From an uncultured Gammaproteobacteria bacterium (lineage in GTDB: Bacteria > Patescibacteriota > Microgenomatia > Levybacterales > UBA12049): a DNA stretch of 64,000 nt. Numbering within the stretch: the stretch's first letter is position 1; each line of letters begins with the position of its first letter. The translations under genes were made by a program, and so were the position numbers. A model generated the notes under the pieces. It was not told the origin of the DNA, ran no database searches, and saw nothing but the letters and a program-made list of their open reading frames with translations. The stretch is from NCBI GenBank assembly GCA_964537895.1, contig CAZIDK010000001.1, positions 51,229 through 115,228 on the forward strand, in the 5' to 3' direction. Below are positions 22,801 to 29,366 of the stretch, one piece after another.

Positions 22801-22895
22801 GCTAATTATAATCTCTTCGAGCTCCTCGAGTCTGAGCCTCGGCGTCGAAGACCTGAGTCTCAGAGCCGAAGGCCTGAGTGAGTCGAAGGAGAAGT
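22801..22895. repeat. REP/MITE-like repeat, copy D (contains an exact 45-nt duplicate of 40884-40928)
   Basis: 22813-22857 (ctcttcgagctcctcgagtctgagcctcggcgtcgaagacctgag) equals 40884-40928. Followed by imperfect ~13-nt tandem units (ccgaaggcctgag-like). Confidence 0.7.
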
Positions 22896-22927
22896 CAAAT
22901 TAATTTTTCTTGCCTTATAATCAAATT

Positions 22928-23134
22928 CTATTTTGTATTTATTAAAAAATAGGGGAGGTTTTCCTGTGGAACTTTGAATAACGTGGGTTTTTTATATCCC
23001 TTTTGTAAAGCCTCTTTGTAGGCCTTTTCGGCGTTTTTATTTGAGCTAATAACTTTTTTTAGAGATTCATCTAGGGCTACCCACATTCCTTTATATTTAT
23101 TGAATATTTTAGTCAAATTTGTACTCATTTTCAT
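22928..23134 (-). CDS. Small antitoxin-like protein (DUF5678-like)
   Basis: 68 aa; the KGMWVAL...KKVISS...KPTLFKVP pattern recalls DUF5678. No partner toxin gene is adjacent. Confidence 0.4.
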   Translation of the reverse strand: MKMSTNLTKIFNKYKGMWVALDESLKKVISSNKNAEKAYKEALQKGYKKPTLFKVPQENLPYFLINTK

Positions 23135-23173
23135 GTTGTGTTAATTATAACATAATAATGGAAATTGAAAAAC

Positions 23174-23257
23174 CCGCGGGTTGAGCGGAGCGAAATACTC
23201 CTTACTATGAGTAGAGCGAAATGGTGAGTGCGATTGAACCACTAAGAAGTCAGATTA
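23174..23257. repeat. Direct repeat flanking the toxin-antitoxin cassette, copy 1
   Basis: cgggttgagcgRagcRaaat...ggtgagtg...gaaccactaagaagtcaRatta, shared with 24040-24099 in the same orientation. Confidence 0.7.
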
Positions 23258-23409: not shown

Positions 23410-23616
23410 ATGCCAGATATAATTGAAACAAAACCAAACATCCTAGGCGGAATGCCAGTTATAAAAGGAACTAGGATTCCTATCGCGCGTGTTGTGGCAT
23501 TATATGTTCAAGGCTATAAGATAAAAGATTTCAAGAGAGATTATCCTTATCTCACAATTACAAAAGAGGATATAGCAAACATATTCTCCCATTATTCTCA
23601 CCTTGCATCAAAATAA
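23410..23616 (+). CDS. DUF433 family antitoxin-like protein
   Basis: GGMPVIKGTRIPIARVV matches the DUF433 core. TATAAT is 5 nt upstream of the ATG. Confidence 0.6.
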   Translation: MPDIIETKPNILGGMPVIKGTRIPIARVVALYVQGYKIKDFKRDYPYLTITKEDIANIFSHYSHLASK

Positions 23617-23962
23617 GAATACAAACAAAAAGCGTAAGTTTAGATTATTATTAGATTCTGCATTTGCTAAACCTGATCAATTTCCCAAGCTAGCTAAAAA
23701 GGCAAAGTTATTACATGTAGTTCATGATTTGGGATTATCTAAACAGGCTGCGGATATAGATATCTACCAAAAGGCACTTGAAGAAAACTGCTTCGTATTA
23801 ACAATTAACTTTAGGCATTTTAGGAAGTTTGTTGTTAGTGGTAAACCGGGAGTAATTGGAATAGATTCGCAGCTGTCTAATGACGAAATTGACTCAATTG
23901 TTGTAAAGTTTATCTCTGGGAAAAATCCTGATGACTTTCTAGGAAAAGCTATTAAAATTTAA
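23603..23962 (+). CDS. DUF5615 (PIN-like / Mut7-C RNase-like) toxin-like protein
   Basis: LLLDSAF...VVHDLGL...ADIDIYQKALEENCFVLTINFRHF...GVIGI pattern of DUF5615. Overlaps the DUF433 gene by 14 nt, a typical toxin-antitoxin arrangement. Confidence 0.55.
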   Translation: MHQNKNTNKKRKFRLLLDSAFAKPDQFPKLAKKAKLLHVVHDLGLSKQAADIDIYQKALEENCFVLTINFRHFRKFVVSGKPGVIGIDSQLSNDEIDSIVVKFISGKNPDDFLGKAIKI

Positions 23963-24045
23963 CTGCTTTCTACAATTTTTATTTCTTCCGGAGTGAGGGC
24001 TGAAAGATTAGTCCAAAAAACCGCAGAGGCTAAGGTTTTCCCGCC
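23959..24045 (-). pseudogene. Remnant 3' end of a DNA methyltransferase-like gene (ends ...LSALTPEEIKIVESS*)
   Basis: The minus-strand frame encodes the TaqI_C-like C-terminal tail (LTxEEIxIVE) seen in N6-adenine methyltransferases / type IIG enzymes, but no long ORF precedes it. The 21-mer ttctacaatttttatttcttc recurs at 26050-26070. Confidence 0.4.
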
Positions 24046-24099
24046 GGGTTGAGCGAAGCAAAATGGTGAGTGAAATCGAACCACTAAGAAGTCAAATTA
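24040..24099. repeat. Direct repeat flanking the toxin-antitoxin cassette, copy 2
   Basis: Matches 23174-23257 and ends with the same gaaccactaagaagtcaaatta motif. Confidence 0.7.
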
Positions 24100-24118
24100 A
24101 TTTTTCGACTCTAAAGAT

Positions 24119-24781
24119 TTATAGTTGTTCCGTTAAGAATCTTTGCACTCCTTCAAGCATAGATTTGACATCCTCTGTCTTGTATTCACTAAATTTACCA
24201 TGGTCAGCACTGTCTCTTATTGCTTTCCAGGCTTGGATTTGTTTCTGAAGCAATCGATTGTAAATTTCTTTGTCTGCTAACTTTGCATTAAGCGATCCAA
24301 TATCATCGCCTGATTTGACATCTATTGTGTGTTTTTGTGCAATTTGTCTTAAACCGTTTTCTAAAACAGCACCTACAAGAGAAGCAGCGGAGTCTTTATA
24401 ATTATTGTCCAAAAGATGTTTGGCCATCTGGATAAAATCAGTAAAAATCTCTGCGCTTACTAAATCCCTAACTTTCGTTAAATATCCAAGTTCCAGATCT
24501 TCCTTCAGCGCTTTAAGAATGCCTACACCGTGATCAACATCTCCCGGGAAGGCTGACTTAACTTCCTCAACAAAATTTTTATAATAAGGGCTGTTTTCTC
24601 CGCAAACCAACAGGATGAAGTTTTGTGCATTATTTTTCCACTCGTGAAACGAAGCAGTATTAACTCTGTCAGGAGCCACAGCATAAGCCGAACTGTTGCT
24701 ATAACGCGTAGAAGCAACGCTTTGTGCTTTTGTCAGAAGCTGTGTAGCGCGTTCAATAAGTTTTTCTGTTGTTGAGTTCAT
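24119..24781 (-). CDS. HEPN-like protein (Rx4H motif near the C-terminus)
   Basis: All-helical 220-aa protein with AIRDSADHGKF (R-x4-H), the HEPN RNase signature. Sits 20 nt downstream of the DUF1508 gene and has its own GAGGA Shine-Dalgarno. Confidence 0.4.
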   Translation of the reverse strand: MNSTTEKLIERATQLLTKAQSVASTRYSNSSAYAVAPDRVNTASFHEWKNNAQNFILLVCGENSPYYKNFVEEVKSAFPGDVDHGVGILKALKEDLELGYLTKVRDLVSAEIFTDFIQMAKHLLDNNYKDSAASLVGAVLENGLRQIAQKHTIDVKSGDDIGSLNAKLADKEIYNRLLQKQIQAWKAIRDSADHGKFSEYKTEDVKSMLEGVQRFLTEQL

Positions 24782-24801
24782 ATTTTAATTTCCTCTAAAA
24801 A

Positions 24802-25005
24802 TTATGTTTCTACAGGATAAGTTCTGTAAATATTTGCAGCCGCTGCATTAGCTATGACTAGATTCGCTGCATGAACTGCATCAGCCTCGTTTTCATAGGA
24901 TTCACTCCAGCAGATATCGTTTCCATTGGATGAAACAAATACAAAATAAATTTGCCCATCCCTATTCTTTCTTAGTTCAAATTTAAATTCTCCCATTTTT
25001 ACCAC
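24802..25005 (-). CDS. DUF1508 (YegP-like) single-domain protein
   Basis: FELRKNRDGQIYFVFVSSNGNDICWSESYENEADAVHAANLV matches the YegP/UPF0339 repeat unit. Confidence 0.55.
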   Translation of the reverse strand: MVKMGEFKFELRKNRDGQIYFVFVSSNGNDICWSESYENEADAVHAANLVIANAAAANIYRTYPVET

Positions 25006-25020
25006 CTGCCTTTTTCCCTG

Positions 25021-25058
25021 TTGACAAATAAAATTTGTTGTAATATTATTACAACACT
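25021..25058 (+). promoter_or_regulatory. XRE gene promoter (TTGACA-N17-TATTAT) overlapped by a 10/11-bp inverted repeat operator
   Basis: TTGACA at 25021-25026 and TATTAT at 25044-25049, with the ATG 9 nt later. Inverted-repeat arms TTGTTGTAATA (25035-25045) and TATTACAACAC (25047-25057) span the -10 box, which suggests autoregulation. Confidence 0.5.
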
Positions 25059-25457
25059 ATGAATAAAAGTCAAGTACCATTTAATCAAACCTTCGGAGAA
25101 TTTTTCAGACAAAAAAGAATTTCCTTAGACTTTACATTAAGATCTTTTTGCGAAAGGTATAATTATGACCCTGGTAATATCAGTAGACTTGAAAGAGACA
25201 TTCTCTCCCCAAGTGTAGATCAGCAAAAACTTGAGGGATATGCTGCAGCTTTGAAAATACCACGTGATAGCGAGGAGTGGACAATGTTTTTTGATTTAGC
25301 TCATACTGCAAAAGGTAAAATTCCCGAAGATATTCTAAGTGACCCAAAAGTTCTTTCAATTCTACCAGCTTTCTATAGAACAGCTAGGGGAGAAAAATTG
25401 GATAAAAAGAAAATAGACCAGTTAATTAAACTTCTTAATGAGAATAATAAAAAATAA
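25059..25457 (+). CDS. XRE-family helix-turn-helix transcriptional regulator
   Basis: HTH region with LRSFCERYNYDPGNISRLERD; 132 aa; TAATG stop/start overlap with the next gene. Confidence 0.65.
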   Translation: MNKSQVPFNQTFGEFFRQKRISLDFTLRSFCERYNYDPGNISRLERDILSPSVDQQKLEGYAAALKIPRDSEEWTMFFDLAHTAKGKIPEDILSDPKVLSILPAFYRTARGEKLDKKKIDQLIKLLNENNKK

Positions 25458-26044
25458 TGAAAGAACCAAGCTTGACCTATCAAGACGTAGCTAATGCTGC
25501 AAATAACTTTTTAAAAACTTACCATTCTTCTCTTAAATTACCAATTCCCATAGAAGAAATAGTTGAGCTTAAAATGAATATTGCTATAGTTGCAGTACCG
25601 GGAATTAAGAAGCTCTTGGGGATAGATGCATTTATAAGTTCTGATTTTACTCAGATTACTGTGGATGAAAACTCCCTACTTAAATTTACTAAAAGAACTA
25701 GATTTTCCATAGCACATGAAATAGGTCATTTGATATTGCATAAAGATTGGTACGAGAAATATGGTCCTAAAGACTTTGAAGATTATTTGACGTTTTACGA
25801 TCGCATAGATAATAAAGTATATAAATATATGGAGATTCAAGCTCATACATTTGCTGGATTGGTTTTAGTTCCATCCAGTCTATTATTCAATGAGCTTAAA
25901 ATCAGAATTGGTAAAATCCCACATCTAGAAATACCTGAGATTCTTATTCCAGTAGCTCAGGATTTATTAGAGATATTTGAAGTATCAGGAGAAGTAATGT
26001 TTAGACGATTGCAAAAAGAAAAAATAATAAAATCCAATTCTTAA
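25457..26044 (+). CDS. ImmA/IrrE family metallo-endopeptidase (COG2856)
   Basis: Contains HEIGHLILH (HExxH). Translationally coupled to the XRE gene, the classic XRE-ImmA arrangement. Confidence 0.7.
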   Translation: MKEPSLTYQDVANAANNFLKTYHSSLKLPIPIEEIVELKMNIAIVAVPGIKKLLGIDAFISSDFTQITVDENSLLKFTKRTRFSIAHEIGHLILHKDWYEKYGPKDFEDYLTFYDRIDNKVYKYMEIQAHTFAGLVLVPSSLLFNELKIRIGKIPHLEIPEILIPVAQDLLEIFEVSGEVMFRRLQKEKIIKSNS

Positions 26045-26185
26045 GAATTTTCTACAATTTTTATTTCTTCGGGGGTTAGTCCGTAAAGTTTGTAAACTTC
26101 TTCATCGATTTTTTTATCTATCTTTTCAATTTCAGCTTTTATCGAATTCCATTGATTAGAATTTTCTGAAGTAGCCAATATTTTT
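26041..26185 (-). pseudogene. Remnant 3' end of a DNA methyltransferase-like gene (ends ...IDEEVYKLYGLTPEEIKIVENS*)
   Basis: The minus-strand frame reads SENSNQWNSIKAEIEKIDKKIDEEVYKLYGLTPEEIKIVENS*, a TaqI_C-like C-terminal tail. Only about 45 codons, preceded by a stop. Shares ttctacaatttttatttcttc with 23968-23988. Confidence 0.45.
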
Positions 26186-26220: not shown

Positions 26221-26940
26221 TTAAATACTATTGCTGATAATACCACTTTCTTTAAAACTAAAATATTCATCTGAAGTAACTATCAGATGATCAATTATTG
26301 AAATACCTACTAATTTACCTGCTTCTACAAGTCTATTTGTTGTAGATATATCTTCCTCTGATGGTTTGGAATCTCCTGATGGATGATTGTGAGAAATAAT
26401 AATTTGTGCGATATTTTCTTTTATGGCCTTTTTAAAAACTTCTCTGGGATGCACTAAGCTTGCATTTAAGGTACCAATGCTAATTTCTTCGTTTATTAAT
26501 TTATTTCGTGTATCAAAATACAAAATTGTAAAATGTTCTTCTTTTTTACTTCCTATTTTTGTTTGAAGATAGTCAGCAACTAATTTAGAAGAATTTAATA
26601 AAATTTTAGATGATATTTTTTCTTTGGAATATCGCTCAGAAATCGCTTTAAATAAAATTAACCCCAAAGCATTTGAACGACCAATTCCCTTAATTGCAAT
26701 TAATTCTATTATATCTGCATCCAATACTCCTTTGAGATTTTTGAACTTTTTAATAGCCTCTTTGGCTATTTGTTTGCAATCTTTACGCGGAGTACCCAAT
26801 GTCAACAATAATTCAACTATCTCGTAATCCAAAAATCCATTTAAACCAGAATCAATAAATTTTTCTCGGAGTCTTTTTCTATGCCCTTCGGAGTGATTTA
26901 TTTTTTTAATATTTGAATCAGAAATGCTTTTATTTTTCAT
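26221..26940 (-). CDS. RadC-like JAB/JAMM domain protein
   Basis: C-terminal HNHPSGDSKPSEEDISTTNRL matches the RadC JAMM metal-binding motif (HxHP...SxxD). N-terminal RPRERL-like GHRKRLREKF. Start placed at the ATG at 26940, overlapping the upstream gene stop by about 11 nt. Confidence 0.75.
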   Translation of the reverse strand: MKNKSISDSNIKKINHSEGHRKRLREKFIDSGLNGFLDYEIVELLLTLGTPRKDCKQIAKEAIKKFKNLKGVLDADIIELIAIKGIGRSNALGLILFKAISERYSKEKISSKILLNSSKLVADYLQTKIGSKKEEHFTILYFDTRNKLINEEISIGTLNASLVHPREVFKKAIKENIAQIIISHNHPSGDSKPSEEDISTTNRLVEAGKLVGISIIDHLIVTSDEYFSFKESGIISNSI

Positions 26941-28855
26941 TAGTCTCTTTATCGATATTAAATGAAGCTCCATTGGAATCATTATCGTATAAAGTAGAAC
27001 TTATTCTTTGATTACTTAAATGTTTTTCAAAATAACCTTGAGTTTCTGGATCAACTGAGTAAATATAACAACCTTTCATTCCTCTAGTCATGAGTGTTCG
27101 ATATGTGTTTTTAATAATCATATCTGCCATTCTTTTTGACTCTTCTGGATTTTCTTTAAGCCTTTTCTTTATTCCCTTGAATGACTGATCAGAAGATGCT
27201 CGTTTTGTTGCATCAGTAATAATCTTGCCATTTCGAACAACCATATCTGGACCAATTATTACTCCTACATAGTCCAACTCCAGCCCTTGAGAAGTATGTA
27301 TGCAGCCCACCTCACTTACAGAATCAGGATGAATTAACCACGATTGACCATGTAAATATAAATTCCAAGTCGCCTTATAATCATCAATCACGATATCCTT
27401 TAATTTAGCATTTTTCTTGCTTATCCATTTCCAACAATAACCTGCTAACAATCTTGATTTATTATTTTCTTGATTTAGGTCAATTATTTTTTTATGAAGA
27501 ATCGAAGGATTATCCATAACTTTAAAATCATAATTAATATCTTCTAATGATTCATTTGCTGTTTCTCTTATCTGTAATAAATTATCAATCCAGGCTAAGT
27601 AACCATCTGATCCATTACATCTAAACTGCGAAGCTAACTCTAGAGATGTGACTTTTGCTCCCAAGCTTTCTGCCCATTTTATAATTTCTGACTTTTTACC
27701 TATATCTTTCAATGTAACTCTTTGGTTCTCATCGATAAAAAAAACACAAAGCTTGGACACATTTATTAACTCTTTTATTTGATTTTCTCCTAAATGACTA
27801 AACAGTCCTGACTTGGCATTAAGTCTATGCGCCTCATCAACAATAAGTGAATCAAAAGTATTAGCTTCAATATCATAAAATGAACCAGACGAGCTAAATA
27901 AATTTGAGATACGAGTTTTTGTAAATTTACCACTGAGTTTCACTTGGTATACTTCACGAGGTGCTGAATTTTTTGTGACGTATTGCGTAACATTCCCTCT
28001 TTTCGTAAGCTCTGTTAATAAGTTTATTGCAACAATTGATTTACCAGTACCAGGACCTCCTTCGACTATCAGCACATTTTTATTACGCTCAGATGATTCT
28101 TCTGCTAGTTTAAGCGCAGTTTCATATACGATTTTTTGATCATCGATTAGTATGAATTCCTTGTTACCCTCAAGCATTGAAGCAAGACTATCAACTAATG
28201 CCTTTGATGGCCTAATTTTTCCATTTTCAATACTATACAAGATATTTGTTTTATCACCATATTTTACAAATCTTTTTATAAATTCTTGTAATTTTAAGGC
28301 ATCGGTTTTTAGAAAAGCAGGGGCCTTGTCTGTGTATTCCTTATAAAAAACATTGGTAATAATATCGTCTGCCTCGTAATTATGAAGATATGCGCAGGGA
28401 ACTAGAGATATGTTATCTGTTTGAACAGCACTATTAAAATCTTCTAATAATGTTGCATACGACCAGACTTGATATGATGGGTGGGGAACTTCTCCATAAA
28501 AATTTGTATTAAGAACCCCATCTTTTTCAGTCAAACTAACACCTTCACTCCATTGTTTCAACTCGACAATTACGGCTACTTTTCTGTTCTCATTATTTGT
28601 ACCGGTAATTATAAAATCTATACGTTTAGACGTTTGAGGAATTTTATATTCAATTGCAATACCAGCATCATCAGGAATACTCGAATCGTTAATAACATTA
28701 CTCATATAAGGCATGGACTTACGCCATGAGTTAATCTCGCTTTTACCTGTGGCGTGTCCCATCTCGCGTACAAATGAAGTAAGAATTTGTTGTTCTACCT
28801 GTCCAGACAAAACATCACTTAAAAACCCCTTTTTATTAGATGAATAAACGATCAT
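26930..28855 (-). CDS. Fusion protein: N-terminal PD-(D/E)xK nuclease-like domain plus DUF2075-type SF1-helicase-like P-loop ATPase
   Basis: N-terminus RIDFIITG...VAVIVELKQW (D...ELK). Walker A VEGGPGTGKS and Walker B LIVDEAHRL. The C-terminal CIHTSQGLELDYVGVII resembles the helicase 2B motif. 641 aa. Confidence 0.65.
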   Translation of the reverse strand: MIVYSSNKKGFLSDVLSGQVEQQILTSFVREMGHATGKSEINSWRKSMPYMSNVINDSSIPDDAGIAIEYKIPQTSKRIDFIITGTNNENRKVAVIVELKQWSEGVSLTEKDGVLNTNFYGEVPHPSYQVWSYATLLEDFNSAVQTDNISLVPCAYLHNYEADDIITNVFYKEYTDKAPAFLKTDALKLQEFIKRFVKYGDKTNILYSIENGKIRPSKALVDSLASMLEGNKEFILIDDQKIVYETALKLAEESSERNKNVLIVEGGPGTGKSIVAINLLTELTKRGNVTQYVTKNSAPREVYQVKLSGKFTKTRISNLFSSSGSFYDIEANTFDSLIVDEAHRLNAKSGLFSHLGENQIKELINVSKLCVFFIDENQRVTLKDIGKKSEIIKWAESLGAKVTSLELASQFRCNGSDGYLAWIDNLLQIRETANESLEDINYDFKVMDNPSILHKKIIDLNQENNKSRLLAGYCWKWISKKNAKLKDIVIDDYKATWNLYLHGQSWLIHPDSVSEVGCIHTSQGLELDYVGVIIGPDMVVRNGKIITDATKRASSDQSFKGIKKRLKENPEESKRMADMIIKNTYRTLMTRGMKGCYIYSVDPETQGYFEKHLSNQRISSTLYDNDSNGASFNIDKETNEK

Positions 28856-28857
28856 AA

Positions 28858-29205
28858 TTATAATTTGTTATATTTAGTGTGCTTTCCTTTTGCTTTTTTA
28901 ACAGGGTATTTCTTCTTATTTTCCTTCATTTTTTTATCGAAAGCTTTTAGTAAGTCTATGTTTAAATCGTGGCTCATTAACAAAGTCCAATACAAGACAT
29001 CGGAAAGTTCATCAGCAATTTCATTCTTATGTTTTTTAACATATTCATCCATTTCTTCTTTACTTTGCCAAAGAAAATGCTGTAAAACTTCAGAAGCCTC
29101 TAGGGAAAGCGCAATAGAAGAATCTTTTGGATTATGAAACTGCTTCCAATCTCTTGCGTTGCGATATTTAATTATAATATCTATTAAATTTTTGATATCC
29201 GACAT
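28858..29205 (-). CDS. MazG-like all-alpha nucleotide pyrophosphohydrolase
   Basis: RNARDWKQFHNPKD...ALSLEASEVLQHF...EIADELSDVLYW matches the MazG/YpjD NTP-PPase helix pattern. 115 aa; 2-nt gap to the downstream gene. A TAAAAT -10 lies 6 nt upstream of the ATG. Confidence 0.6.
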   Translation of the reverse strand: MSDIKNLIDIIIKYRNARDWKQFHNPKDSSIALSLEASEVLQHFLWQSKEEMDEYVKKHKNEIADELSDVLYWTLLMSHDLNIDLLKAFDKKMKENKKKYPVKKAKGKHTKYNKL

Positions 29206-29366
29206 GCTTGGATTTTAACACTTTTGATAATTTTTAGAAAGGATGGGCAATTGGTCTCCATCTTTACTTCCAGATAGACGTTTTTGGAATACCCGTAAAC
29301 CCTAGAACATTTTTAGGAGAAACAAACTCGAATTAGACTCAGGAGATCTTGATCTTAAATTGAGAG

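What the first reader, a model, noticed from the sequence alone, without database searches (positions are those of the whole stretch)
26221..29205. Three-gene operon of MazG-like NTPase, PD-(D/E)xK nuclease fused to a DUF2075 helicase-like ATPase, and RadC/JAB: candidate undescribed defence module
The three minus-strand genes are packed at 2-nt and about -11-nt spacing behind a single promoter (TAAAAT 6 nt upstream of the first ATG).
- First gene: a small all-alpha MazG-type nucleotide pyrophosphohydrolase.
- Second gene: a 641-aa protein with an N-terminal restriction-endonuclease-like D...ELK motif fused to a Walker A/B (GPGTGKS / DEAH) SF1-helicase-like DUF2075 core.
- Third gene: a RadC-type JAMM (HNHPSG...SxxD) protein.
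The operon sits in an island of toxin-antitoxin genes, HEPN-like and XRE/ImmA regulators, and methyltransferase remnants, next to a decayed methyltransferase 3' end. MazG-type NTPases and DUF2075 ATPases each occur in defence islands, but I do not recognise this exact combination as a named system. A plausible mechanism couples sensing or translocation by the helicase-nuclease with nucleotide depletion, with JAB as a processing or regulatory partner.
Basis: partly seen in the sequence, partly recalled or inferred. Interest (0 to 1): 0.8.

Follow-up and report, generated by a model that had tools for sequence, protein, structure and literature searches.

The report
MazG, nuclease-helicase, RadC gene module
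Three tightly packed genes in a candidate-phyla-radiation bacterium encode a nucleotide-cleaning enzyme, a DNA-cutting helicase distantly related to known anti-phage proteins, and a RadC protein; the first two form a pair found across bacteria and archaea that was proposed as a phage-defence candidate in 2022 but has not been validated.

Summary
Three minus-strand genes (29205-26221) encode a MazG-like pyrophosphohydrolase, a 641-aa protein with an N-terminal E..D..ExK motif fused to a Schlafen-type (DUF2075) SF1B helicase, and a full-length RadC. Catalytic motifs are intact in all three.

- MazG + nuclease-DUF2075 is a conserved two-gene core. MazG is directly upstream in 88 of 114 loci, across many bacterial phyla, with relatives on archaeal plasmids.
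- It is not wholly undescribed. Millman et al. 2022 tested this pair as candidate "Pyrophosphatase". SG192 (54%/41% identical to our proteins) showed no defence, and SG193 failed cloning.
- The helicase protein is a distant homologue (hhalign 96%) of the validated single-gene "Nhi-like" defence protein.
- RadC is specific to the Patescibacteria-type clade (17 of 19 assessable loci). There the gene order varies and the flanks differ, so the trio probably moves as a unit.
- In 44 of 108 homologues, all outside that clade, a LexA-like S24 peptidase is fused to the C-terminus. This never coincides with RadC.

Best reading: a mobile anti-phage/anti-MGE module. It is a new variant of a known kind, with no experimental proof of defence.

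The parts
29212..29240 (-). Promoter-like element. TTTCTA (29240-29235), 17-nt spacer, TGnTAAAAT (-10 at 29217-29212), 6 nt before the ATG. This would give a leaderless or near-leaderless mRNA.
   Evidence: Read directly from the sequence. Not flagged by the consensus scan, so it is inferred only.
28858..29205 (-). MazG-like all-alpha NTP pyrophosphohydrolase (115 aa), of the DCTPP1/RS21-C6 type. Metal-binding residues E36xxE39 ... E66xxD69.
   Evidence: Pfam PF12643 E 5e-17. PHROG pyrophosphatase 5e-16. PDB 4QGP 1e-18 and DCTPP1 2e-14. E36, E39, E66 and D69 are conserved in at least 95% of 101 homologues.
28106..28855 (-). N-terminal domain (aa 1-250) of the 641-aa protein. Putative PD-(D/E)xK nuclease with E69, D80 and E98-x-K100.
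   Evidence: Invariant motif. The AF2 model shows alpha-beta-beta-beta-alpha-beta order, with D80 at the start of beta2 and ExK at the end of beta3. hhalign aligns it with the nuclease motif of Nhi-like. No Pfam or PDB hit. The domain is always N-terminal in 1,944 cluster representatives.
27050..28081 (-). SF1B helicase core of Schlafen group 3 / DUF2075 type (aa 259-602). Walker A GPGTGKS, Walker B DEAH.
26930..28855 (-). Whole nuclease-helicase gene (641 aa).
   Evidence: ORF. More than 8,000 homologues. 54% identical to the DUF2075 protein of Millman candidate SG192.
26221..26982 (-). Full-length RadC: HhH-type UPF0758_N domain plus JAB/JAMM domain. The likely start is at 26940, overlapping the upstream gene by 11 nt.
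   Evidence: PF04002 1e-43 and PF20582 4.5e-10. NCBIfam equivalog 221 bits. PDB 2QLC 6e-30. E149, H198, H200, S208 and D211 are conserved. Adjacent in 17 of 19 assessable close-clade loci.

Best explanation
This is the Patescibacteria-specific three-gene form of a horizontally mobile two-gene module. The most likely function is defence against phages or other invading DNA.

**Inferred mechanism**
- **Effector.** The 641-aa protein is an ATP-driven SF1B (Schlafen/DUF2075-type) helicase with an N-terminal PD-(D/E)xK nuclease. Like Nhi and Nhi-like, it loads on foreign or replicating DNA and degrades it.
- **Nucleotide enzyme.** The co-translated MazG-like enzyme is closest to mammalian dCTP pyrophosphatase DCTPP1. 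It hydrolyses dNTPs, probably non-canonical or modified ones. This would either starve phage DNA synthesis or keep modified nucleotides out of host DNA.
- **Control element.** About 40% of homologues carry a LexA-like self-cleaving S24 peptidase domain at the C-terminus. This implies coupling to RecA/ssDNA (DNA-damage) sensing. In the Patescibacteria clade that domain is absent, and a RadC gene (DNA-binding HhH domain plus JAB metalloprotease fold) sits in its place. I infer that RadC plays an analogous regulatory or processing role.

**Shown:** domains, motifs, conservation, gene linkage.
**Inferred:** all activities, the trigger and the defence phenotype.
For: - **Core linkage.** MazG-like is immediately upstream on the same strand in 88 of 114 loci, with a median gap of 9 nt. 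It is within about 1.3 kb in 99 of 114 loci. These span Patescibacteria, Proteobacteria, Bacteroidota, Desulfobacterota, Verrucomicrobiota and Clostridia, and relatives of the 641-aa protein also lie on archaeal plasmids. It also pairs with GIY-YIG-DUF2075 (L078) and with the divergent SG193.
- **Catalytic residues.** They are intact in all three proteins across homologues.
- **Homology to a validated defence protein.** hhalign against Nhi-like gives probability 96%, E 2.6e-9, including the nuclease motif. PADLOC gives PDC-S41 3.7e-22, AbiO 1.5e-16 and Nhi 2.4e-15. For Nhi, both nuclease and helicase are needed for immunity.
- **Structure.** The AF2 model has pLDDT 84. The nearest solved folds are SLFN11, RecD2, Dna2 and Dda.
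- **MazG relatives.** The nearest solved relatives include DCTPP1/RS21-C6, E 2e-14.
- **Mobility and context.** The distribution is sporadic. Flanks differ between loci and GC is lower than the window. Frequent neighbours are Mrr, HNH, Fic, STAND NTPases, MADS and ZorD-like genes. The pair was picked as a defence candidate by Millman et al..
- **S24 fusion.** It is found in 44 of 108 homologues, with the A-G cleavage site, the Ser of GxSM and the Lys conserved. It is mutually exclusive with RadC adjacency: 0 of 44 against 17 of 63.
- **RadC linkage.** RadC is adjacent in 17 of 19 close-clade loci. It lies between MazG and the helicase gene in L018 and L098. It overlaps gene 2 here.
Against: - The only experimental test of this pair showed no defence (SG192, Bacillus firmus LK28, construct of the SG series). 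A second construct could not be cloned.
- No MazG-domain defence gene had been validated as of the DefensePredictor paper.
- The nuclease fold is not independently confirmed. There is no Pfam or PDB sequence hit, and the fold searches are dominated by the helicase.
- Identity to Nhi-like is only about 23-25%.
- Cross-phylum conservation of 54-62% is unusually high for a defence gene.
- The biochemical role of RadC is unknown. It is missing from some Patescibacteria-type loci (L021, L032, L090, L099).
- The S24/RadC equivalence is positional. It comes from phylogenetically non-independent loci.
Confidence: 0.45

Rival explanations
1. RadC is not a functional component. The functional unit is only MazG + nuclease-helicase. 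RadC is a generally conserved gene that became syntenic with the pair in one lineage, either by chance or because it marks an insertion hot spot.
For: - RadC is absent next to the pair in 72 of 74 loci with <60% identity, and in several Patescibacteria-type loci (L021, L032, L090, L099).
- The protein matches the generic RadC equivalog full length.
- Adjacent RadCs vary from 36% to 82% identity while the helicase protein stays at 61-89%.
Against: - Flanks on both sides of the trio differ between loci, while the trio itself persists (L127).
- Gene order is shuffled within the trio in L018 and L098.
- The coding regions overlap here.
- RadC adjacency is complementary to the S24 fusion.
Confidence: 0.25
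2. The module is not immunity. It is an SOS-linked DNA-repair or nucleotide-pool sanitation function. The helicase-nuclease processes damaged or stalled forks, as SLFN11 and Dna2 act at stressed forks. MazG removes damaged dNTPs. S24 or RadC ties it to DNA damage.
For: - LexA-like S24 domains are present in 44 of 108 homologues.
- The MazG/DCTPP1 family is a house-cleaning family (established knowledge of DCTPP1).
- Sequence conservation is high.
- The phage-defence test was negative.
- Fold neighbours are Dna2, RecD2 and SLFN11.
Against: - The distribution is sporadic and horizontally transferred, including plasmids.
- Loci sit in variable islands rich in restriction, toxin-antitoxin and STAND genes.
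- The protein is homologous to Nhi-like, AbiO and PDC-S41.
Confidence: 0.2
3. The module serves the mobile element that carries it. Possible roles are inter-element competition, anti-defence, or plasmid/phage establishment. RadC-like and MazG genes are common cargo of plasmids and phages.
For: - Homologues lie on 39 plasmid records.
- One lies in a record named Microcystis phage Mwe-JY31, with a 110-aa gene upstream.
- Bro-N, KilA-N and RhuM genes are nearby.
Against: - Only 6 distant relatives (28-34% identity) were found in 2.9 million viral contigs.
- Only 4 phage records match.
- Most loci are chromosomal.
Confidence: 0.1

Closest known systems
Candidate system 'Pyrophosphatase' (constructs SG192 Bacillus firmus LK28, SG193 B. 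thuringiensis Lr3/2) in Millman et al. 2022, Table S2 (bioRxiv 10.1101/2022.05.11.491447)
   Same: It is the same two-gene core, a small MazG-type pyrophosphatase followed by a roughly 640-aa DUF2075 protein. The SG192 proteins are 54% (E 4e-151, over the 399 aa available) and 41% identical to ours. The family profile matches SG193 at hhalign probability 99.7%.
   Different: It was never named or validated. SG192 is marked 'x' for observed defence and SG193 'Cloning failed'. It has no RadC. The window's version is the Patescibacteria three-gene form.
Nhi-like (SG141, Bacillus cereus FSL H8-0482; Millman et al. 2022), a validated single-gene anti-phage protein
   Same: The architecture is the same, an N-terminal nuclease plus DUF2075 helicase. 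Homology is detectable across the nuclease motif and helicase domain 1A (hhalign probability 96%, E 2.6e-9).
   Different: Identity is only about 23-25%. Nhi-like acts alone, with no MazG or RadC partner. Phages escape Nhi-like by losing a phage DNA methylase. Nothing comparable is known here.
Nhi (SERP2475, Staphylococcus epidermidis; Bari et al.) and AbiO
   Same: These are PD-(D/E)xK nuclease plus SF1B/DUF2075 helicase proteins. Both activities are required for immunity. PADLOC gives partial hits: Nhi 2.4e-15 and AbiO 1.5e-16.
   Different: The hits cover only aa 181-444, the helicase 1A region. Nhi has a different C-terminal domain, is a single-gene system, and has no MazG or RadC.
PADLOC candidate PDC-S41
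   Same: It is the best PADLOC hit (3.7e-22). It covers the N-terminal domain, aa 19-293 against profile positions 16-271 of 657. The profile length is similar.
   Different: The match is partial. PDC-S41 is a single-gene, unvalidated candidate, and no paper in the held library mentions it.
Human SLFN11 / SLFN14 helicase domain and DCTPP1 (RS21-C6)
   Same: The helicase belongs to the same Pfam family as Schlafen group 3, and SLFN11 is the top Foldseek PDB hit. The MazG-like protein aligns nearly full length with DCTPP1, E 2e-14.
   Different: Schlafens carry an N-terminal tRNA-nuclease domain, not PD-(D/E)xK. SLFN11 and DCTPP1 are not known to act together. Identities are only 12-15% for the helicase.
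RadC-like DinG (helicase with fused RadC-like domain)
   Same: It is another case of a RadC/JAB module physically linked to a DNA helicase. Its function is likewise unknown.
   Different: It is an SF2 DinG helicase and a fusion rather than a neighbouring gene. It has no MazG and no nuclease.

Membership tests
MazG-like family (Pfam PF12643; all-alpha NTP pyrophosphohydrolases) | HMM score above the curated cut-off | tested here: met
   62.3 bits against a cut-off of 27, covering the full profile 1-85.
MazG-like family (Pfam PF12643; all-alpha NTP pyrophosphohydrolases) | ExxE ... ExxD metal-binding residues | tested here: met
   E36, E39, E66 and D69 are present and conserved in at least 95% of 101 homologues.
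MazG-like family (Pfam PF12643; all-alpha NTP pyrophosphohydrolases) | (d)NTP pyrophosphohydrolase activity and substrate preference | not testable with these tools
   There is only homology to DCTPP1 and 4QGP.
Schlafen group 3 / DUF2075 helicase (PF09848), SF1B | HMM score above the cut-off over the full domain | tested here: met
   356 bits against a cut-off of 24, profile positions 1-354 of 354.
Schlafen group 3 / DUF2075 helicase (PF09848), SF1B | Walker A/B and SF1 motifs; RecA-like two-domain fold | tested here: met
PD-(D/E)xK nuclease superfamily (N-terminal domain) | Catalytic (E)...D...ExK motif on the alpha-beta-beta-beta-alpha-beta core | tested here: met
   E69, D80, E98 and K100 are invariant. 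Predicted secondary-structure elements are H38-55, E65-69, E80-86, E92-100, H126-140 and E150-157, with D80 at the start of beta2 and ExK at the end of beta3.
PD-(D/E)xK nuclease superfamily (N-terminal domain) | Significant sequence or fold match to a known PD-(D/E)xK member | tested here: inconclusive
   - Pfam gives only DUF7149 at E 0.02.
- The PDB profile search finds nothing even at E 10.
- Whole-model fold searches list only helicases.
- hhalign does align the motif with that of Nhi-like.
Nhi / Nhi-like anti-phage nuclease-helicases | N-terminal nuclease + DUF2075 helicase in one polypeptide | tested here: met
Nhi / Nhi-like anti-phage nuclease-helicases | Full-length match to the family's detection model | tested here: not met
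   The PADLOC Nhi hit is 54 bits and covers aa 213-443 only, against profile positions 159-358 of 470. BLASTP against Nhi-like gives 25% identity over aa 124-344.
Nhi / Nhi-like anti-phage nuclease-helicases | Acts as a stand-alone single gene | tested here: not met
   It is linked to MazG-like in 99 of 114 loci.
Nhi / Nhi-like anti-phage nuclease-helicases | Confers phage resistance | not testable with these tools
   The nearest tested relative (SG192) showed none.
Millman 2022 candidate 'Pyrophosphatase' (MazG + DUF2075) | Adjacent pyrophosphatase and DUF2075 genes orthologous to SG192 | tested here: met
   54% and 41% identity, with the same order and tight spacing.
RadC family (NCBIfam NF000642 / TIGR00608; Pfam PF04002 + PF20582) | Scores above the curated cut-offs; HhH N-domain + JAB domain | tested here: met
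   221 bits against a cut-off of 180 and 202 bits against 134. PF04002 1e-43 and PF20582 4.5e-10.
RadC family (NCBIfam NF000642 / TIGR00608; Pfam PF04002 + PF20582) | JAMM motif E...HxH...S..D | tested here: met
   E149, H198, H200, S208 and D211 are conserved in 20 module-linked RadCs.
S24 (LexA-like)-fused form of the nuclease-helicase | C-terminal Peptidase_S24 domain | tested here: not met
   The window protein ends at aa 641 without it. The domain is present in 44 of 108 homologues, none of them from the close clade.

The most novel reading that the evidence does not exclude
RadC, whose function has been unknown for decades, would here be the DNA-sensing control subunit of an ancient immune or genome-guardian module. 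That module is a Schlafen-type nuclease-helicase plus a DCTPP1-type dNTP pyrophosphatase. RadC would do the job that a RecA-responsive LexA-like S24 domain does in other lineages. The MazG partner would act on modified dNTPs (for example 5-methyl- or 5-hydroxymethyl-dCTP). That would either block modified-base phages or prevent self-targeting by a modification-sensitive nuclease.
Probability: 0.12. Interest if true: 0.8.

Novelty: new variant of a known kind. Interest (0 to 1): 0.55.

Why it matters
- **Reach of the core pair.** It is one of the more widespread and best conserved nuclease-helicase modules. The N-terminal domain alone has 1,944 clusters at 50% identity. The pair occurs across many bacterial phyla, with relatives on archaeal plasmids. 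It still has no demonstrated function.
- **Human counterparts.** It joins prokaryotic relatives of two human genome-guardian proteins, the SLFN11-type helicase and DCTPP1.
- **A testable trigger.** The S24 fusions point to RecA/ssDNA as the trigger.
- **A context for RadC.** The Patescibacteria trio places RadC in a defined genetic setting, which could make its function testable.
- **Possible precedent.** If the module is defensive, it would be the first validated MazG-containing defence system.
- **Candidate-phyla-radiation bacteria.** It would also be a defence module that is common in these organisms.

Tried and rejected
- **Shallow AF2 run.** The first run, with 22 close homologues, gave pLDDT 47 and was discarded. 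A 129-sequence alignment gave pLDDT 84.
- **Sequence searches with the N-terminal domain.** Lenient Pfam and PDB-profile searches found nothing useful.
- **Literature.** Searches for DUF2075+MazG, MazG+Schlafen+phage and PDC-S41 found no paper.
- **XRE/ImmA pair.** I considered it as part of the module. I rejected this because it recurs in only one other lineage (L093-95) and is convergent with the trio.
- **Phage origin.** I considered it, but only 6 distant hits appear in IMG/VR.
- **Second copies and tRNA targets.** No second RadC, MazG or DUF2075 copy is in the window. No tRNA integration target is present.
- **Terminator.** The one terminator-like hairpin lies inside the RadC coding region, so I did not accept it.


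Full report
**What is in the window.**
Three minus-strand ORFs occupy 29205-26221.
- Gene 1 (28858-29205, 115 aa) is separated from gene 2 (26930-28855, 641 aa) by 2 nt.
- Gene 3 overlaps gene 2. The overlap is 53 nt from the first ATG at 26982, or 11 nt from the ATG at 26940.
- A TGnTAAAAT extended -10 ends 6 nt before the first ATG. A simple consensus scan did not flag it, so the promoter is an inference.

- Gene 1: MazG-like PF12643, E 5e-17.
- Gene 2: SLFN-g3_helicase (the current name of DUF2075) PF09848, E 3e-106, over aa 259-602.
- Gene 3: RadC PF04002, E 1e-43, plus the UPF0758_N HhH domain. It passes NCBI's RadC equivalog cut-off, 221 against 180 bits.

The first 250 aa of gene 2 have no Pfam family.

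- a DUF433/PIN-like pair;
- DUF1508-HEPN;
- XRE + ImmA;
- two remnants of the C-terminus of a type IIG methyltransferase gene.

The trio is AT-richer than the window, 31.6% against 37.3% GC.

**Are the proteins likely active?**
I aligned homologues collected from 125 related loci. Conserved residues are:
- MazG: E36xxE39 and E66xxD69 in at least 95% of 101 sequences.
- Helicase protein: E69, D80 and E98-L-K100, Walker A/B and the later SF1 motifs in at least 90% of 108 sequences.
- RadC: the JAMM residues E149, H198, H200, S208 and D211 in all 20 module-linked copies.

An AlphaFold model built on 129 homologues reached pLDDT 84 and pTM 0.84. A first attempt with 22 close homologues failed, at pLDDT 47.

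The nearest solved structures to the model are all SF1B helicases.
- Foldseek: human SLFN11 first at 2e-11, then RecD2, SLFN14 and Dna2.

The N-terminal domain has the alpha-beta-beta-beta-alpha-beta order of PD-(D/E)xK nucleases. D80 lies at the start of beta2 and ExK at the end of beta3. I could not obtain an independent sequence or fold match for that domain alone. The nuclease assignment is therefore well motivated but not proven.

**What is conserved elsewhere.**
The 641-aa protein has more than 8,000 relatives.
- Identity is 68-92% within Patescibacteria.
- Full-length homologues reach 53-62% identity in Proteobacteria, Bacteroidota, Desulfobacterota, Verrucomicrobiota, Clostridia and others.
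- Homologues also lie on archaeal plasmids.
- The N-terminal domain alone defines 1,944 clusters at 50% identity. It is always at the N-terminus of proteins of about 620-650 or about 800 aa.

Linkage to MazG is strong. Of 114 loci with enough upstream sequence, 88 have a MazG-like gene immediately upstream on the same strand, with a median gap of 9 nt. In 99 of them it lies within about 1.3 kb. MazG also precedes a GIY-YIG-DUF2075 paralogue in Algoriphagus (L078). The conserved functional unit is therefore MazG + DUF2075 nuclease-helicase.

**RadC.**
RadC is adjacent in only 2 of 74 loci whose helicase protein is less than 60% identical to ours. It is adjacent in 17 of 19 assessable loci of the clade with at least 63% identity, the Patescibacteria-type clade. 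This includes a complete Woesebacteria genome (L127).

Within that clade, three observations argue for functional linkage:
- The flanking genes differ from locus to locus.
- The order is sometimes MazG-RadC-helicase (L018, L098).
- The genes overlap in this window.

Some related loci lack RadC (L021, L032, L090, L099). The adjacent RadCs range from 36% to 82% identity. RadC is therefore best seen as a lineage-specific accessory.

**An unexpected family feature.**
Forty-four of 108 homologues, all outside the RadC clade, carry a C-terminal extension of about 170 aa. It is a LexA-like Peptidase_S24 domain.
- Pfam gives 1e-6 for L053, and PF00717 is precomputed for many hits.
- The A-G cleavage site, the GxSM serine and the lysine are conserved in 42-43 of 44.
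- S24 fusion and RadC adjacency never coincide: 0 of 44 against 17 of 63. The nominal Fisher p is 6e-5, but the loci are not phylogenetically independent.

From established knowledge of LexA, UmuD and lambda CI, this points to RecA/ssDNA-stimulated self-cleavage as a control step. It makes RadC, a DNA-binding HhH domain plus a JAB fold, a candidate for an analogous role. This is inference.

**Comparison with what is known.**
PADLOC-DB v2 gives only partial hits. PDC-S41 scores 3.7e-22 on the N-terminal part. AbiO (1.5e-16) and Nhi (2.4e-15) hit helicase domain 1A. MazG has no hit.

The nuclease + DUF2075 architecture is that of Nhi and of the validated 'Nhi-like' protein. A profile of our family aligns with Nhi-like at 96% probability (E 2.6e-9), across the nuclease motif and the first helicase domain. 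Identity is only about 23%, and BLASTP gives 25%.

Table S2 of Millman et al. 2022 lists a candidate system called 'Pyrophosphatase'.
- SG192 (Bacillus firmus LK28: a 98-aa pyrophosphatase plus a 643-aa DUF2075 protein) has 'x' under 'observed defense'.
- SG193 (B. thuringiensis) is marked 'Cloning failed'.
- Our proteins are 54% (E 4e-151) and 41% identical to those of SG192.

So the pair has been noticed and tested once, with a negative result, and was never named. No paper in the held library links DUF2075 with MazG. The DefensePredictor paper states that MazG-type domains predicted in defence had not been validated. RadC's function remains unknown, and a RadC-DinG helicase fusion is a loose precedent.

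**Mechanism.**
I favour a mobile anti-phage/anti-MGE module (confidence about 0.45).
- The nuclease-helicase degrades foreign or replicating DNA.
- MazG acts on dNTP pools. Its nearest characterised relatives are 4QGP and mammalian DCTPP1/RS21-C6.
- S24 or RadC acts as a control element.

Support comes from the homology to Nhi-like, AbiO and PDC-S41, and from the sporadic, horizontally transferred distribution. Frequent neighbours also fit: Mrr, HNH, Fic, STAND NTPases, MADS and ZorD-like genes.

Several points count against this reading:
- the negative SG192 test;
- the unusually high cross-phylum conservation;
- the unproven nuclease fold;
- the unknown activities of MazG and RadC.

The rival readings are:
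- RadC is a bystander (0.25).
- The module is an SOS-type repair or sanitation system (0.2).
- The module serves its mobile element (0.1). This last rival is weakened by only 6 distant hits in 2.9 million viral contigs.

**Verdict.**
The finding is a new, RadC-containing variant of a known kind, the Nhi-like nuclease-helicases. Its MazG-paired core was already proposed as a defence candidate but has not been validated. Interest is moderate (0.55). The value lies in four things:
- the breadth of the family;
- the SLFN11 and DCTPP1 parallels;
- the S24 clue to a trigger;
- a defined genetic context for RadC.

Noticed in passing
window 24119-26044: A DUF1508 (24802-25005) + HEPN (24119-24781) operon is transcribed divergently, 54 nt apart, from an XRE HTH gene (25059-25457) and an ImmA/IrrE M78 peptidase gene (25457-26044). 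PADLOC scores the latter two as capH (2.9e-3) and capP (1.8e-14), which suggests a DNA-damage-responsive regulator pair controlling a HEPN effector. The same XRE/ImmA pair also follows RadC in L093-L095, where there is no HEPN.
   Followed up: partly
window 22890-23257, 23959-24106, 26041-26178: The last ~45 codons of a type IIG restriction-methyltransferase gene (...TPEEIKIVE[NS]S) occur twice as remnants. A ~50-nt element (GGTGAGTG..GAACCACTAAGAAGTCA.ATTA) recurs three times between small cassettes. This looks like serial insertions that each duplicated the target. There is no tRNA gene in the window.
   Followed up: partly
window 23410-23962: A DUF433 gene (68 aa) overlaps a 119-aa gene with no family hit; the pair looks like a toxin-antitoxin module. 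A DUF5678 gene lies at 22928-23134.
   Followed up: no
L053 5998-8391 and 43 other loci (e.g. L002, L004, L010, L017, L029, L033, L061): Homologues of the nuclease-helicase carry a C-terminal LexA-like S24 peptidase domain with an intact A-G cleavage site and Ser/Lys dyad. In the Halomonas group the MazG gene lies downstream instead of upstream.
   Followed up: yes
L078 3668-7857: In Algoriphagus vanfongensis, an extended MazG (208 aa) is followed by a GIY-YIG-DUF2075 protein (568 aa) and then the PD-(D/E)xK-type DUF2075 protein (618 aa). These are two helicase paralogues with different nuclease heads in one operon.
   Followed up: partly
L130 (Methanosphaera plasmid pNP174), NC_014298.1 (Halalkalicoccus), L129 (record 'Microcystis phage Mwe-JY31'): Full-length homologues at 49-56% identity occur on archaeal plasmids and in a 22-kb record deposited as a cyanophage. 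In the cyanophage record a 110-aa gene sits where MazG would be.
   Followed up: partly
L127 (Woesebacteria CP065002.1, 1109249-1127171): The trio lies in another island with DUF3800, GIY-YIG, a Y1 transposase, PDDEXK_1 and two NUDIX genes. None of these is shared with the window.
   Followed up: no
window 26930-27020 (aa 612-641 of the helicase protein): The C-terminal 30 residues are predicted disordered (pLDDT about 30) and are poorly conserved outside the close clade. Their coding sequence overlaps the start of the RadC ORF.
   Followed up: no
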